Shown: positions 12,001-33,000 of the stretch, piece after piece
Numbering within the stretch: position 1 is the first letter of the stretch
Layout of the letters: each line of letters starts with the position of its first letter
Assembly (NCBI RefSeq): GCF_056746865.1
Contig: NZ_CM163382.1
DNA: 64,000 nucleotides
Strand: one strand, 5' to 3'
Made by a program: the position numbers

Positions 12001-15000
12001 AGGTGTCCACACTGCCACGAGGTGAGTTAGCCAGGTAGTAACTGCCTATCGGGAATGGCATTGTGCGAATGATGTCCTCGTCATCCTCCAGCACTGCCAT
12101 TGCACCAGTGCTGTATGTGCCGAGGCTTCCGTATAACTGCGGCAGCGACTGATAGAGATTCGACTTATTGAACATATCGTTCATGCGGTTCTGCACCGCC
12201 TCAAGCCACAACTTAACAGGGCCATAATCCATCATTTCAGGATCTGGCGTAGCCAGGCGAAACCACGGACGCGCGGGGCTTGTGATGCCTGACATCATGC
12301 CGCTGGCGAGAGTGCGCGCCGCCATAGTCCCGGTCGAATCAATAATGCGTGTATTGCGTCGATCGTTACGGTTAACCTCAGAAGTCAGAAAGCGGGAACC
12401 ACGCGGGTTGATGTAATCACTCAACTCGCGCCAGTGCGGCTCGAACGACTGACGCTCGCTTTCAAGTTGTGCGAACTGTTTGTTCAATCGCTCTTTAGTT
12501 GTTTCCGCCATTTCAATGACTCCGGTTACTGACCAAGCAGCGTTTTACCGCTGGTATTAGCGGTTGATGTGTCGCCCTGAGAACCGGTAAGCAGCGTAGA
12601 ACTACGACCAGCAGCAGCGCGACGGCGACGAGTTTCTTCGTCGCGGGCATCAACAACGGCGGCATCCTGCTCCTGTGGTGCTGCCTGAACTTCTGGTGTT
12701 GCAGGCACTGATGGTGAGCTACCCATGCACATATCAATGACTCCGTACGCAATTAAATTATTACCAATTTAACCACATATGATTTATTTATCGTAGGTAG
12801 TTGACATTTAACGCACAAATTATTACCTTTCAGGTAACCAAAGAGTTCATTCCGGTTACTAACCTGACTGGCTTGTCGTTAAATTGAACAGGTGGAGTGA
12901 GCTTTTATTTTGAGCAGTACGGCGTATGGCACATGCGCCGATAGCGGTCTGGATACGTTTAAGGGGCACCCTCCCTTGCTCGGGCAAACGAACCAGGTAG
13001 CCGGAATGTGCAAGTCGAGCGGTTTTATTCCGCGCACGGGGATTCACCATCCCGGCGATTCGGTGTGACGCCTCGGAAGAGACGAGGGTACAACGATGAG
13101 AGCATTTATGGAGCCGCGACAAAGTGTGGCGCCTTAACAGGCTAAGTGCTCTCAGCGTTGTGGCATTAGCTCAGCTGGACAGAGCAACCGCCTTCTAAGC
13201 GGTTGGTCGCAGGTTCGAATCCTGCATGCCACGCCAGAATCACGCCTAAGGACCGTGATGCCAGAAGTTCCATGGGCTTGGCGGTGATGGTTTCCCTTGA
13301 AGGACTATCACCGCCCTTTTTACAGCAGGACGCCATTGCGATGGCTTCATGCTGTAAACCAGTACAGCCACGGAAGGCATAACTCATTGCTTCCAGTTCG
13401 CCCGGTTCGCCGGGCATTTTTTTAAGGTGAGATGATGAACGACCAGCAAATCGAAAAAGAAATCGTTGAGAAAGGTAAAACGGCACCTCGTGTAACTCCT
13501 GAGAAAATTGAAGGTCTCATTTGCAGTGAGCATTTTTTACTGCTGCGCAGGGGGATCATCAGGCTAAAGAAGATGACCTTATTTATAATCCAGAGCCTTA
13601 TGTCGAAGCCACCCCTGATGCTCTGCACCTTCTCACTTTCTGCGTCCTGGTGCTGCGCAACGACTTCACCGTCACCGGAGAGAGCGCCTGTGCAAGCCCG
13701 GAAAACTTTGATGCAGAAATTGGTCGGAAGATTGCCCGGCAGAATGCTGTAAACAAAATCTGGATGCTTGAAGGTTACTTGCTGAAGCAGAAGTTAAGCG
13801 GGCAATAACACCGTGACATGTCACAAACAGCCAGCCTATGAGCTGGCTTTGTTTTATCCTCACCAGAGGATATCAACGACATTATCCCCACCAGCGGATT
13901 AAGCATAGGGATCGTAATCTGTAATGGCCTTGCCTTGCTGGTTCTGCTGACCTGGAATTCGCAGACGCTTCGACACAGGGAAAGCAAACGTCAGCAATAG
14001 CGCATCGCCTTTACCCGGCGAACGCCCAAGACGCTCTTTGATATCTTCCTTCGGTTCGATAACGATTTTACCGTCCACGCGAACTTTGTACTCTGCCGCC
14101 GACAGGTCGTCCGCTGTTTCCTGGTCATCCAGCATGCCGCCCAGCCTCAGCCATGTCTTACATGAGTTGAACATCTCCCCACGCTTGTTAAGCATCTGCG
14201 GGTCAGTGGACGCACCGCCGAACGGAACAAGTTGCCATGTACGCCCCCAGCCATCACCGATTGACTTCAAACCGGTTCCGTAACCGAAGTCGATGAACAC
14301 TGCGTCAGCCTGGTACTGGTCTTCAAAGTCAGCGATACGCTTCGCCATAATCAGATCGTCAGTGGTCTTGTTGCCAGTCCACAGCACCTTACTGTGCAGC
14401 CCCTGCCGCAGGTATATCACAGCGTCATCAACGCCGGAGTATGCCGGGTCAACGCCGATTATCACCGGAGCATGTGCAACCTGCGCAGCGGTTACCACCC
14501 GTTTCATTGCCTCGTCAGTAAGACCGGTAGGGATAAACTGCAATTCAGATGCATCAGGGAATATGCCACGCACACGGATTTTAACGAAGTCGCTGTCTTC
14601 CCCGTAGTCATCAACCCATTTCTGCAACTGCTGTTTGTTAGTGCCTTCCACCGTCCGGCTGTCAATCTGCGCAGTTTTCCAGCGGTGTTTATATTTGCGG
14701 AAACATTCGCGAAAACGCCCGGTGTTACGTGTAGGGTTTCCGAACGCCACCCAAATAATCTCAGTGTCTTCGTCCGTAAGCGCACCCTCGGCAACTTCCC
14801 ACACCAGATCCGCAATGTTCGACGCTTCATCAAACACCACGATGATGCGTTTGCGCTCGTTGTGTAGTCCGGCGAATGCCTCAGTGTTGTGCTCAGACCA
14901 GGGTATTGCGTCAGCCCGCCACCGCTTGTCGTGCCCAGGGTCATTGCTGTACATCGCGGTAGCGGTACAGGTAAACCAGTCTTTCGTGATAGCAAGGTTC

Positions 15001-30000: not shown

Positions 30001-33000
30001 CACGTTTAGCCGCAGCCGGTGACTGGCCTGCTTTAAGCAGCTTCTTTGCAGCAATCAGTTCTTCTCGCGCTTCTGCCAGGCTGATACCGTCACGCCCATA
30101 CTGCCCGATTACCAGTGTTTCGCGGCGACCGTTGATACGGTAGTCATAGCGAAACGAGACCGTGCCTGACGTAAGCACAGCTACATACAGCCCGTCACGA
30201 TCGGAGACCTTGTACAGTTTGTCCTGCGGCTTGAGGTTTTTTAATTTTGTATCGGTAAGCACAATTCACCCGTATAGAAACCATTTTCATGACGGTATGA
30301 GAGTATACCTTTAAGGTAATACCGTCACCTGTACCGACGAAAAATATGGTGTAGAGTGAATAGAAATGAATACATAAAAACAAAAACCCTCTGTAAAAAC
30401 AGAGGGTTGAGTTAGTATCTGAATAGGAATGATTTGCTATGAGTTAGCTGTTAATCATTCCCACTCAATAGTCGCTGGTGGCTTGCCGCTGATGTCATAC
30501 ACCACGCGGGAAATACCGTTCACTTCATTGATAATGCGGTTGGAAACGCGACCGAGGAAGTCATACGGCAGGTGCGCCCAGTGTGCGGTCATAAAGTCGA
30601 TGGTTTCGACAGCACGCAGAGAAACAACCCAGTCATACTTACGACCATCGCCCATTACACCAACGGAACGTACCGGCAGGAAGACGGTGAACGCCTGGCT
30701 GACTTTGTCGTACAGGTCCGCTTTACGCAGTTCTTCAATAAAGATGGCGTCAGCACGGCGCAGCAGGTCGCAGTACTCTTTCTTCACTTCGCCCAGTACA
30801 CGAACGCCGAGGCCTGGTCCCGGGAACGGGTGACGGTACAGCATGTCGTACGGCAGGCCCAGCTCCAGACCAATCTTACGCACTTCGTCTTTGAACAGCT
30901 CTTTCAGCGGTTCAACCAGCCCCATCTTCATCTCTTTCGGCAGGCCGCCCACGTTGTGGTGAGATTTGATGACGTGTGCTTTACCGGTTGCAGATGCGGC
31001 AGATTCAATAACGTCAGGGTAGATAGTGCCCTGCGCCAGCCACTTCACGTCTTCCAGTTTCAGTGCTTCTTCATCGAATACTTCAACGAAAACGCGCCCG
31101 ATGATTTTACGTTTTGCTTCCGGATCGTTTTCGCCGGCCAACGCTGACAGGAAGCGAGCTTCTGCCGGAACGTGAACAATGTTCAGACCAAAGTGATCGC
31201 CAAACATATCCAGAACCTGCTCTGCTTCGTTGAGACGCAGCAGGCCGTTGTCGACGAATACGCAAGTCAGGTTTTTACCGATAGCGCGGTGCAGCAGCAT
31301 TGCGGTTACGGAGGAATCCACACCACCAGAGAGGCCGAGGATGACTTTATCGTCGCCTACCTGCTCGCGGATGCGAGCTACGGCGTCGTCGATAATTTTC
31401 GCTGGCGTCCACAGGGCTTCACACTGGCAGATATCACGCACAAAACGCTCCAGCATGCGCATACCCTGGCGGGTGTGAGTCACTTCCGGGTGGAACTGTA
31501 CGCCATAGAAGCGTTTTTCTTCGTTAGCCATAATGGCAAACGGGCAGCTTTCGGTGCTGGCTACGGTGACGAAGTCGGACGGGATAGCGGTAACTTTATC
31601 GCCGTGGCTCATCCAGACATCGAGCAGCGGTTTACCGTCTGCGGTCAGCGCATCTTCGATACCGCGAACCAGTGCGCTGTCGTTTACGACTTCAACCTGC
31701 GCGTAGCCAAATTCACGTTCGTTAGAGGCTTCAACGTGACCGCCCAACTGCATTGCCATGGTCTGCATGCCATAGCAAACGCCGAATACCGGTACGCCTG
31801 CTTCAAAGACATACTGCGGCGCGCGCGGGCTGTTTTCTTCGGTGGTGCTTTCCGGGCCGCCGGAAAGAATAATGCCGCTTGGGTTGAAGTCACGAATTTG
31901 TGCTTCTGTCACATCCCACGCCCACAGTTCGCAGTAAACACCCAGTTCACGCACGCGGCGCGCAACCAGTTGAGTGTACTGAGAACCGAAGTCCAGAATG
32001 AGGATGCGATGCTTATGAATGTTTTCCGTCATTGACGCTTATTCCGAGGCAAGTGAAACAGATAATATAAATCGCCCGACATGAAGTCGGGCGAAGAGAA
32101 TCAGGAGCCCAGACGGTAGTTCGGGGACTCTTTAGTAATGGTCACGTCGTGAACGTGGCTTTCCTGAATGCCCGCACCGCTGATACGTACAAACTCCGCT
32201 TTAGTACGCAGTTCGTCGATAGTACCACAGCCGGTCAGGCCCATACAGGAGCGCAGGCCGCCCATCTGCTGGTGAATGATCTCTTTCAGGCGACCTTTAT
32301 AGGCCACGCGACCTTCGATACCTTCCGGCACCAGTTTGTCGGCAGCGTTGTCACTCTGGAAGTAACGGTCAGAAGAACCTTTGGACATCGCACCCAGAGA
32401 GCCCATCCCACGGTAAGATTTGTAAGAACGGCCCTGGTAGAGTTCGATTTCACCCGGAGATTCTTCAGTACCCGCCAGCATGGAACCCACCATTACCGCG
32501 CTTGCACCTGCGGCGATAGCTTTGGCGATATCGCCTGAGAAACGGATACCACCGTCAGCGATAACCGGAATACCGGTGCCTTCCAGGGCTTCTACGGCGT
32601 CAGCAACGGCGGTGATCTGCGGAACACCTACGCCAGTCACGATACGAGTCGTACAGATAGAGCCAGGGCCAATGCCGACTTTAACCGCACTGCAACCAGC
32701 TTCTGCCAGAGCGCGTGCACCTGCAGCTGTTGCCACGTTGCCGCCGATGATTTGCAGATCCGGATATTTAGCACGGGTTTCACGGATACGTTGCAGTACA
32801 CCTTCTGAGTGACCGTGAGAGGAGTCGATCAGCAGAACGTCAACGCCTGCGGCAACCAGCGCGTCAACACGCTCTTCGTTACCCGCACCCGCGCCAACCG
32901 CTGCACCAACACGCAGACGGCCTTGCTCGTCTTTACAGGCGTTCGGTTTACGTTCCGCTTTCTGGAAGTCTTTCACGGTGATCATGCCGATCAGGTGGAA

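What the first reader, a model, noticed from the sequence alone, without database searches (positions are those of the whole stretch)
12823..30319. A 15-bp palindrome TTACC-N5-GGTAA recurs at ten or more intergenic prophage sites
Perfect or near-perfect copies occur at the divergent Cro/repressor region (22358-22372, 22389-22403, 22406-22420, spaced 31 and 17 bp), downstream of the repressor gene (23119-23133, 23181-23195), after the Cro terminator (22022-22036), between the P-like gene and the next gene (20058-20072 overlapping its ribosome-binding site, and 20120-20134), just upstream of TerS (15985-15999), in the promoter region of the tRNA cassette (12823-12837, next to TTGACA at 12801), and near the integrase/guaA junction (30305-30319, ATACC tttaa GGTAA). 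With ten fixed bases, fewer than 0.1 copies are expected by chance in 30 kb. The likely binding protein is the dual-HTH repressor, which would then control not only the early promoters but also the tRNA cassette, a mid-region promoter and the terminase-proximal region.
Basis: partly seen in the sequence, partly recalled or inferred. Interest (0 to 1): 0.6.

Follow-up and report, generated by a model that had tools for sequence, protein, structure and literature searches.

The report
Prophage repressor operators, already known kind
The repeated palindrome is real and is the operator of the lysogeny repressor of an epsilon15/phiV10-type prophage, a motif already annotated in phage epsilon15, so it is ordinary; one copy, however, sits on the promoter of a widespread structured RNA that matches no Rfam 15 family and is annotated in no record examined.

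Summary
Confirmed. TTACC-N5-GGTAA occurs 7 times perfectly and 4 times with one mismatch, all intergenic in the prophage (window 1-30469). The 33.5 kb of host DNA has none perfect; about 0.04 are expected by chance.

The prophage is a Uetakevirus (phiV10/epsilon15 type) integrated at guaA. GenBank record AY150271.2 of epsilon15 already annotates the same palindrome (ATTACC-N5-GGTAAT) as repressor binding sites, at homologous places: upstream of TerS, upstream of gp3, the early-left promoter region and the mid-region.

Six relatives from Escherichia, Salmonella, Enterobacter and Klebsiella keep the half-sites at the same loci while spacers and flanks diverge. Pair spacings are fixed at 62 bp around two promoters and 17-18 bp elsewhere.

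The repressor (22477-23061) is a homologue of the solved SPC32H Rep, reported to bind DNA as a tetramer. This is a new member of a known kind.

Corrections:
- The rep-cro sites are off by 1 bp.
- The 22390 site has 2 mismatches and is credible only by position.
- A second TerS-proximal site (15967) was missed.
- The 30305 site is ambiguous, because it lies between integrase arm-type repeats.

Side finding: the operator at 12823 covers the -10 of a promoter. That promoter drives a covariation-supported ~245-nt RNA with no Rfam match, present in about a third of complete E. coli genomes.

The parts
12823..12837 (.). Operator O_B, perfect (TTACCTTTCAGGTAA). It contains the -10 of promoter P_B.
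   Evidence: Orthologue of the epsilon15 site 2931-2947 annotated as 'repressor'.
12801..12829 (+). Promoter P_B, TTGACA-17-TACCTT, pointing at the structured RNA and tRNA-Arg.
   Evidence: TTGAC and the operator are invariant in 5 genera-level relatives. The operator starts 22 nt after the start of the -35 in every Uetakevirus-type copy where a promoter was called.
12915..13162 (+). Structured noncoding RNA element with no Rfam match. Its conserved 3' motif includes the first bases of the tRNA.
13160..13236 (+). tRNA-Arg(UCU).
13280..13315 (+). Intrinsic terminator that ends the RNA/tRNA unit. The GGCGGT...ACCGCC stem is conserved, with compensatory changes, in other phages.
15985..15999 (.). 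Operator O_T1, perfect, directly after a terminator and upstream of TerS.
   Evidence: Orthologue of the annotated epsilon15 site 12-27.
15967..15981 (.). Operator O_T2, 1 mismatch. It lies 18 bp from O_T1, ends 2 nt before the TerS ATG (15964) and covers the GGTGG Shine-Dalgarno-like bases.
16019..16036 (-). Intrinsic terminator of the upstream early-right genes.
20120..20134 (.). Operator O_M1, perfect, just after the terminator of the P-like gene.
   Evidence: Orthologue of the annotated epsilon15 site 35906-35922.
20058..20072 (.). Operator O_M2, perfect, 62 bp from O_M1. It covers the GAGG ribosome-binding site of the DUF1064/resolvase-like gene (ATG 20054).
20072..20100 (-). Candidate promoter P_mid, cTATTGATT-17-TTTAAT, between O_M1 and O_M2. 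An alternative is TTGATA-16-CAAAAT at 20114-20141.
22022..22036 (.). Operator O_F, 1 mismatch (GGTAC), immediately after the terminator of the cro-like gene.
   Evidence: Conserved in phiV10, ZX5, Tyrion and BUCT711.
21977..22004 (-). Candidate promoter TTGATC-16-CAAAAT for the gp40-like and replication genes. TTGATC is invariant in the 5 genomes aligned and the CAAAAT region is largely conserved.
22051..22070 (-). Intrinsic terminator after the cro-like gene.
22092..22322 (-). Cro-like small repressor gene (76 aa).
   Evidence: phrog_35, E 5.6e-13.
22359..22373 (.). Cro-proximal operator, 1 mismatch (TCACC), in the spacer of P_R.
22354..22383 (-). Candidate P_R, TTGATT-18-AATATT. The -35 TTGATT is invariant in 7 genomes.
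22390..22404 (.). Middle operator, 2 mismatches. It is credible only because the homologous site is perfect in epsilon15, SPC32H and BUCT711.
22407..22421 (.). Rep-proximal operator, perfect. It overlaps the candidate -35 of the rep promoter (TTTACC-17-TTAAAT, 22406-22434).
22477..23061 (+). Rep, the two-HTH lysogeny repressor (194 aa).
   Evidence: PMC9782041.
23082..23101 (+). Intrinsic terminator of rep.
23119..23133 (.). Operator O_L distal, perfect.
   Evidence: Orthologue of the annotated epsilon15 site 32616-32632.
23153..23181 (+). Early-left promoter TTGACA-17-AATTAT.
   Evidence: 10 of 12 matches; conserved cTATTGACA.
23181..23195 (.). Operator O_L proximal, perfect, 62 bp from the distal one. 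It abuts the -10 and covers the likely transcription start.
   Evidence: Orthologue of the annotated epsilon15 site 32554-32570.
30305..30319 (.). Possible weak operator (ATACC...GGTAA) 43 bp upstream of int. It lies between inverted integrase arm-type repeats (30291-30300 and 30319-30328).
   Evidence: The half-sites are kept with a different spacer in BUCT711.
30453..30469 (.). att core ATTGAGTGGGAATGATT at the 3' end of guaA. This is the prophage boundary.
   Evidence: PMC9782041.

Best explanation
The palindromes are the operators of Rep, the lysogeny repressor of this epsilon15/phiV10-type (Uetakevirus) prophage. Rep has an N-terminal HTH DNA-binding domain and a C-terminal tetramerisation domain. 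Each 15-bp palindrome takes a pair of N-terminal domains, so one tetramer can hold two operators.

Shown here: the sites, their enrichment, their positional conservation, their fixed spacings, their overlap with conserved promoter hexamers, and the homology of Rep.

Inferred (how each locus works):
- rep-cro region: three graded operators form a lambda-like switch. The cro-proximal one lies in the spacer of P_R and the rep-proximal one over the -35 of the rep promoter.
- Early-left promoter and mid-region promoter: two operators exactly 62 bp apart (about six helical turns) clamp the promoter. The proximal one covers the -10/start region or the ribosome-binding site.
- Post-cro site: it precedes a further promoter.
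- Site at 12823: it contains the -10 of the promoter for the structured RNA and tRNA-Arg.
- TerS pair: it sits between a terminator and the TerS start codon and most likely acts as a roadblock or second lock on the late genes.

The lysogen therefore silences each lytic transcription unit directly rather than through a cascade. Induction would be by an anti-repressor, whose gene lies outside the window.
For: - Enrichment restricted to the prophage.
- All sites intergenic.
- Same motif annotated as repressor binding sites in epsilon15 at homologous loci.
- Eight to eleven perfect sites in each of six relatives (0.03-0.04 expected) and none in phiSG1, which lacks a Rep homologue.
- Phylogenetic footprints: half-sites invariant, spacers and flanks variable.
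- Spacings conserved in all genomes: 62 (63 once), 17-18 and 30-31 bp.
- Operators overlap conserved -35/-10 hexamers.
- Rep is homologous to PDB 5D50, has two HTH regions, and NLVNRW is invariant.
- SPC32H Rep is reported to bind palindromic DNA as a tetramer (PMC9638917) through a looping-type tetramerisation domain (PMC9986798).
- The ZX5 repressor, 99.5% identical, stops the lytic cycle.
Against: - No footprint, EMSA or ChIP on any of these sites could be read. The primary epsilon15 and SPC32H papers are not held.
- The epsilon15 annotation is itself a prediction.
- No sigma-70 promoter is recognisable at the TerS pair.
- The Cro-like protein is as conserved as the motif and could be the binder at some sites.
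- The 30305 site may owe its conservation to the attP arm.
- No repressor-swap relative was found, so covariation of protein and motif could not be tested.
Confidence: 0.85

Rival explanations
1. The remote sites (12823, 15967/15985, 20058/20120, 22022) are used mainly by the Cro-like protein (22092-22322) to shut down or time early transcription during lytic growth. Rep acts mainly in the immunity region.
For: The Cro-like protein is 76% identical between this prophage and epsilon15, and its HTH region GTTSHYIQTHLTG is nearly invariant (one T/V substitution in BUCT711). It therefore tracks the invariant motif at least as well as Rep, which is 43% identical overall and 53% in the N-terminal domain. 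It falls in a repressor family (phrog_35). In lambda both CI and Cro use the same operators (established knowledge).
Against: The paired sites at fixed 62 bp fit a protein with four DNA-binding domains, such as the Rep tetramer, better than a 76-aa Cro. The epsilon15 annotators assigned the sites to the repressor. The two readings are not exclusive.
Confidence: 0.3
2. The sites that follow terminators (15967/15985, 22022, 20120) work as transcription roadblocks in the manner of stoperators. They would stop read-through from upstream units rather than occlude promoters.
For: At four loci the operator lies within about 20 bp downstream of an intrinsic terminator. The TerS pair has no recognisable promoter and abuts the start codon. 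Repressors of cluster A mycobacteriophages do block elongation at many dispersed sites (PMC9283540).
Against: At 20120 and 22022, conserved -35/-10-like hexamers lie next to the operator. That geometry is the classic one for promoter occlusion. The sites are palindromic, unlike orientation-dependent stoperators.
Confidence: 0.3
3. The repeats are not regulatory. They would be compositional accidents of AT-rich intergenic DNA, or conserved linker sequences at which gene modules are exchanged by recombination.
For: Sites lie between gene modules. Homology to epsilon15 breaks exactly at the outer edge of the 12823 site and resumes at the 23181 site.
Against: - Even with AT-rich composition the expectation in about 2.5 kb of intergenic DNA is about 0.003 sites (own arithmetic from base frequencies).
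- Half-sites are conserved while spacers vary.
- Fixed spacings recur.
- The replication-module break against phiV10 (20702-21822) is not at an operator.
Confidence: 0.03

Closest known systems
Repressor binding sites of Salmonella phage epsilon15 (gene 38 product; GenBank AY150271.2 protein_bind features) and the Rep/Ant switch of Salmonella phage SPC32H (PDB 5D50, 5D4Z)
   Same: - Same palindrome (a)TTACC-N5-GGTAA(t).
- Same loci: TerS-upstream, gp3-upstream, early-left promoter, mid-region, rep-cro.
- Same spacings (62, 17-18 bp).
- Homologous two-HTH repressor and Cro-like protein, and the same genome layout.
   Different: - Rep is only 43% identical.
- Spacers here carry more G/C.
- The middle rep-cro operator is degenerate here (2 mismatches) but perfect in epsilon15.
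- There are two early-left operators here against three in epsilon15.
- The post-cro site is present here and in the phiV10 group but not found in epsilon15.
- The epsilon15 record annotates 7 sites although 11 perfect ones exist.
Lambda CI/Cro with O_R and O_L
   Same: Divergent repressor and cro genes with three graded operators between them. The repressor gene is followed by a terminator and then an operator-flanked early-left promoter. Cooperative multi-site binding is expected.
   Different: - Rep has no S24 autocleavage domain and is reported to be inactivated by an anti-repressor (own recollection of Kim and Ryu 2013, not read here).
- Rep is reported as a tetramer, not a dimer or octamer.
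- Operators also lie far outside the immunity region, at late and accessory units.
Dispersed repressor sites of other temperate phages: stoperators of mycobacteriophage L5 and cluster A phages; C1 operators of P1
   Same: One repressor with ten or more sites spread over the genome silences many units directly (PMC9283540 and PMC6550527; P1 from established knowledge).
   Different: Those sites are asymmetric and bound by monomers, and stoperators act on elongation in one orientation. Here the sites are palindromes, mostly paired, and mostly overlap promoter elements.

Membership tests
Uetakevirus (epsilon15/SPC32H-type) Rep operators | 15-17 bp palindrome (A)TTACC-N5-GGTAA(T) with an A/T centre | tested here: met
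   There are 7 perfect sites in the window. In 64 perfect sites from 7 genomes the central base is A/T in 126 of 128 symmetrised counts, and the flanks prefer A...T.
Uetakevirus (epsilon15/SPC32H-type) Rep operators | A Rep homologue (two HTH-type domains, 5D50 family) encoded next to the operator cluster | tested here: met
   phmmer against PDB: 5D50, E 3.5e-42 over residues 1-190. Pfam HTH_3 at residues 106-147 and a weak HTH/YdaS match at 21-67.
Uetakevirus (epsilon15/SPC32H-type) Rep operators | Sites at positions homologous to those annotated in epsilon15 | tested here: met
   Annotated epsilon15 sites align with window sites 15985, 12823, 23119, 23181 and 20120.
Uetakevirus (epsilon15/SPC32H-type) Rep operators | Physical binding of Rep to the sites | not testable with these tools
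   Needs EMSA, footprinting or ChIP.
Uetakevirus (epsilon15/SPC32H-type) Rep operators | Induction through an anti-repressor rather than repressor self-cleavage | tested here: inconclusive
   Rep has no S24 peptidase domain. The ant locus of relatives would lie left of window position 1. Only a 300-bp stretch similar to the ant region is present, at 28705-29003.
Lambda-type CI repressor/operator system | Repressor with a C-terminal S24 (LexA-like) autocleavage domain | tested here: not met
   The Pfam scan shows only HTH families. The C-terminal half aligns to the Rep tetramerisation/Ant-binding domain of 5D4Z.
Stoperators (cluster A mycobacteriophages) | Asymmetric 13-14 bp sites, oriented with transcription, inside transcription units | tested here: not met
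   The sites are perfect palindromes, intergenic and next to promoter hexamers.

The most novel reading that the evidence does not exclude
The operator at 12823 gates the promoter of an RNA gene that has not been described. The gene has three parts: a ~245-nt pseudoknotted RNA (12915-13162), a 'cargo' slot closed by an acceptor-like stem (here tRNA-Arg(UCU), other RNAs elsewhere), and a conserved terminator.

The same module has its own strong promoter in lambdoid phages, just after cI and its terminator, where an early-left promoter would lie. In P1-like phages it lies upstream of ban. It occurs in about a third of complete E. coli genomes.

It may be an early-expressed RNA that acts on transcription (put-like antitermination past the terminators that follow it) or on host defences.
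Probability: 0.45. Interest if true: 0.7.

Novelty: new member of a known kind. Interest (0 to 1): 0.3.

Why it matters
For the palindromes themselves the gain is modest. They give a complete operator map for a prophage type carried by about 10% of complete E. coli genomes. The published phiV10 and ZX5 annotations show no operators.

The map shows three things:
- The epsilon15 record under-counts its own sites.
- Operator specificity is the same across relatives from four host genera, although the repressor has diverged to 43% identity.
- The fixed 62-bp operator pairs make a testable prediction for how the tetrameric Rep clamps promoters.

The more valuable lead is the structured RNA under operator control. 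It is common, unannotated, and absent from Rfam 15.

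Tried and rejected
- **Primary papers.** I tried to read Kropinski 2007 Virology, Kim and Ryu 2013 J Virol and Kim 2016 PNAS by PMC id, DOI and PubMed id. None is held. What I say about them rests on secondary citations or is marked as recollection. 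A search for the consensus string I recalled (ATTACCWDWWNGGTAAT) found nothing.
- **Repressor-swap test.** I looked for a relative with the same virion genes but a different repressor, to test covariation of protein and motif. All enterobacterial relatives with portal identity of about 60% or more carry the Rep homologue. The nearest one without it, Sodalis phiSG1, is a mosaic element. It served only as a negative control (0 perfect sites).
- **Two-mismatch sites.** They are background, so I did not add more weak sites.
- **Module-boundary (recombination linker) idea.** Rejected.
- **Host transcription factor or restriction/methylation site.** Rejected. There are no perfect copies in the host DNA and the sites are strictly next to promoters. 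The comparison with E. coli factor consensus sequences is from memory only.
- **Side RNA.** No conserved reading frame. No Rfam match at E up to 10. No literature hit for its invariant strings. tmRNA and extra tRNAs were excluded by ARAGORN. No covariance model was built, because alignment A5 exceeds the 400-column limit.

Full report
**Observation.** TTACC-N5-GGTAA occurs seven times perfectly in the window (12823, 15985, 20058, 20120, 22407, 23119, 23181). Dinucleotide shuffles predict 0.04. With one mismatch there are 14 sites against 1.13 expected. Eleven of them lie in the prophage (window 1-30469). The three in the 33.5 kb of host DNA are the chance level. Two-mismatch matches are equally common in prophage and host (20 against 23), so they carry no signal. 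All eleven prophage sites are intergenic.

There the true sites are 22359-22373 (one mismatch), 22390-22404 (two mismatches) and 22407-22421 (perfect). A second TerS-proximal site at 15967-15981 was missed.

**What the element is.** The left 30.5 kb of the window is part of a Uetakevirus prophage. Its immunity and replication region (19600-23500) is about 98% identical to phages HEMP4, vB_EcoP_ZX5 and TL-2011b and related to phiV10. It is integrated at the 3' end of guaA, with the att core ATTGAGTGGGAATGATT at 30453-30469 (PMC9782041). The immunity region occurs in 555 of 5426 complete E. coli genomes.

**The motif is already annotated.** GenBank record AY150271.2 of Salmonella phage epsilon15 carries seven 'protein_bind, repressor, lysogeny' features. 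Their sequences are ATTACC-N5-GGTAAT. They lie:
- just upstream of TerS;
- upstream of gp3;
- between gp19 and the tailspike gene;
- three times downstream of the repressor gene;
- between the replication gene and the next gene.

These are the same places as the window sites. I recall that the 2007 genome paper gives the consensus ATTACCWDWWNGGTAAT, but I could not read it.

**Conservation.** I scanned epsilon15, phiV10, SPC32H, ZX5, Enterobacter phage Tyrion and Klebsiella phage BUCT711. Each has 8-11 perfect sites where 0.03-0.04 are expected. Sodalis phiSG1, which shares virion genes but has no Rep homologue, has none. Alignments of seven homologous intergenic regions show invariant half-sites set in variable spacers and flanks.

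Neighbour distances recur in every genome:
- 62 bp at the early-left promoter and at the mid-region (63 once);
- 17 and 30-31 bp between rep and cro;
- 18 bp before TerS.

Over 64 perfect sites the centre of the spacer is A/T in 126 of 128 symmetrised counts.

**The protein.** The product of 22477-23061 matches the solved repressor of SPC32H (5D50, E 3.5e-42). It has two HTH regions. Its N-terminal helix NLVNRW is invariant across the genus, although overall identity falls to 43%. Secondary sources say that SPC32H Rep binds palindromic DNA as a tetramer, with the DNA-binding pairs drawn from different dimers (PMC9638917). They also say that its tetramerisation domain is of a DNA-looping type (PMC9986798). 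Overexpression of the 99.5% identical ZX5 repressor abolishes free phage and lytic transcripts, but that paper defined no operators. The divergent 76-aa gene (22092-22322) belongs to a repressor family. It is even better conserved than Rep, so it may use the same sites.

**Geometry, read from the sequence and the alignments.**
- Early-left promoter: the layout is rep terminator (23082-23101), operator 23119, TTGACA-17-AATTAT (23153-23181), then operator 23181, which starts at the last base of the -10.
- Mid-region: the layout is terminator of the P-like gene, operator 20120, a conserved cTATTGATT -35 element, then operator 20058 over the ribosome-binding site of the next gene. This is the same module as at the early-left promoter, down to the 62-bp spacing.
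- rep-cro region: the invariant -35 TTGATT of the cro promoter is followed by the 22359 operator in the spacer. The perfect 22407 operator overlaps the candidate -35 of the rep promoter.
- After the cro terminator: operator 22022 precedes TTGATC-16-CAAAAT.
- At 12823: the operator supplies the -10 (TACCTT) of TTGACA-17-TACCTT. The operator starts 22 nt after the start of the -35 in every Uetakevirus-type contig where a promoter was called.
- Before TerS: two operators fill the space between a terminator and the ATG. I see no sigma-70 promoter there, so I infer a roadblock or an activator-dependent promoter.
- At 30305: the site lies between two inverted copies of GTGACGGTAT, which the epsilon15 record calls integrase sites. 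Its half-sites survive a spacer change in BUCT711, but I leave it as ambiguous.

**Verdict on the finding.** It is an orthologous set of a known kind of operator, not a new system. The mechanism, in which Rep tetramers bridge operator pairs and silence each lytic unit directly, is inferred. No binding data for these sites were available to me.

**Side finding.** The promoter under the 12823 operator drives a 325-nt leader, then tRNA-Arg(UCU) (13160-13236), then a strong terminator (13280-13315).
- Distribution: the core of the leader (12915-13162) is conserved across the genus. It is about 82% identical in lambdoid phages (mEp460, cdtI, Stx2c phages) and in P1-like P7. Its invariant 19-mer GGTAGCCGGAATGTGCAAG occurs in at least 120 viral contigs falling into 71 sequence clusters. 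In reference genomes almost all of the 24 matching stretches are from Enterobacterales. The element is in 1828 of 5426 complete E. coli genomes, and none of the 40 records listed shows an annotated feature under the match.
- Identity: it has no conserved reading frame, no Rfam match and no literature hit.
- Structure: on 37 diverse copies, RNAalifold gives eight helices. 95.5% of cells pair, against 31-47% in slid controls. Nineteen pairs show compensatory changes, against 4-10 in the controls, and no shuffle of 500 reaches the observed covariation score. A four-pair pseudoknot has weak support. Frequent G-U pairs place the RNA on the window's + strand.
- Context: most copies have a sigma-70-like promoter 40-130 nt upstream and a terminator with a covarying GGCGGT...ACCGCC stem downstream. 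Between the RNA and the terminator is a variable insert that is a tRNA in only about one copy in six. In 28 of 72 representative loci it follows a CI-type repressor gene. In mEp460 that repressor's terminator lies between the two.
- Function: unknown. Antitermination and anti-defence roles are guesses.

Noticed in passing
window 12915-13162 (+), with promoter 12801-12829 and terminator 13280-13315: A ~245-nt structured RNA family with no Rfam 15 match and no annotation in any record examined. It has eight helices with strong covariation. It is shared by Uetakeviruses, lambdoid phages (after cI) and P1-like phages (before ban), and is present in 1828 of 5426 complete E. coli genomes. Function unknown..
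   Followed up: yes
window 13160-13315 and homologous stretches of L008 and L010: Between the RNA core and its conserved terminator lies a variable 'cargo' bracketed by an acceptor-like stem (GUGG...CCAC). It is tRNA-Arg(UCU) here and in about 10 of 72 representative copies, and other unidentified structured sequences elsewhere.
   Followed up: partly
window 12752-12780: A 29-nt block (ATATGTGGTTAAATTGGTAATAATTTAAT on the minus strand), invariant in all 7 genomes, lies just upstream of the gp3 ribosome-binding site. It contains one TTACC half-site exactly 62 bp from the 12823 operator. It may be a late-promoter element or a degenerate partner operator.
   Followed up: partly
L001 (epsilon15, AY150271.2) 24704, 33341, 33358, 35969: The epsilon15 record annotates 7 repressor sites, but 11 perfect palindromes exist. 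The unannotated ones include two between the repressor gene and gp39 and one upstream of the holin cluster.
   Followed up: yes
window 29994-30003, 30084-30093, 30291-30300, 30319-30328: Copies of GTGACGGTAT or its complement, the motif annotated as integrase binding sites in epsilon15. Two of them flank the 30305 palindrome as an inverted pair.
   Followed up: partly
window 28200-28289 (+): Match to Rfam sRNA-Xcc1 (RF02221): 64.8 bits against a gathering score of 53, E 1e-9. It lies in a stretch (27762-28704) absent from ZX5 and phiV10.
   Followed up: no
window 23362-24414: A 1-kb insertion relative to ZX5 and phiV10, directly after the first early-left gene. It carries one ORF (23373-24407, 344 aa) rich in charged, coiled-coil-like repeats.
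   Followed up: no
window 28705-29003: About 300 bp next to int is 87-93% identical to the anti-repressor gene region of phiV10, ZX5 and Tyrion. In those phages that region lies near the tailspike gene.
   Followed up: no
Rep alignments A1: Operator specificity appears unchanged across relatives from four host genera, although Rep has diverged to 43% identity (53% in the N-terminal domain, 42% in the C-terminal). Diversification may act on the anti-repressor interface rather than on DNA recognition.
   Followed up: partly
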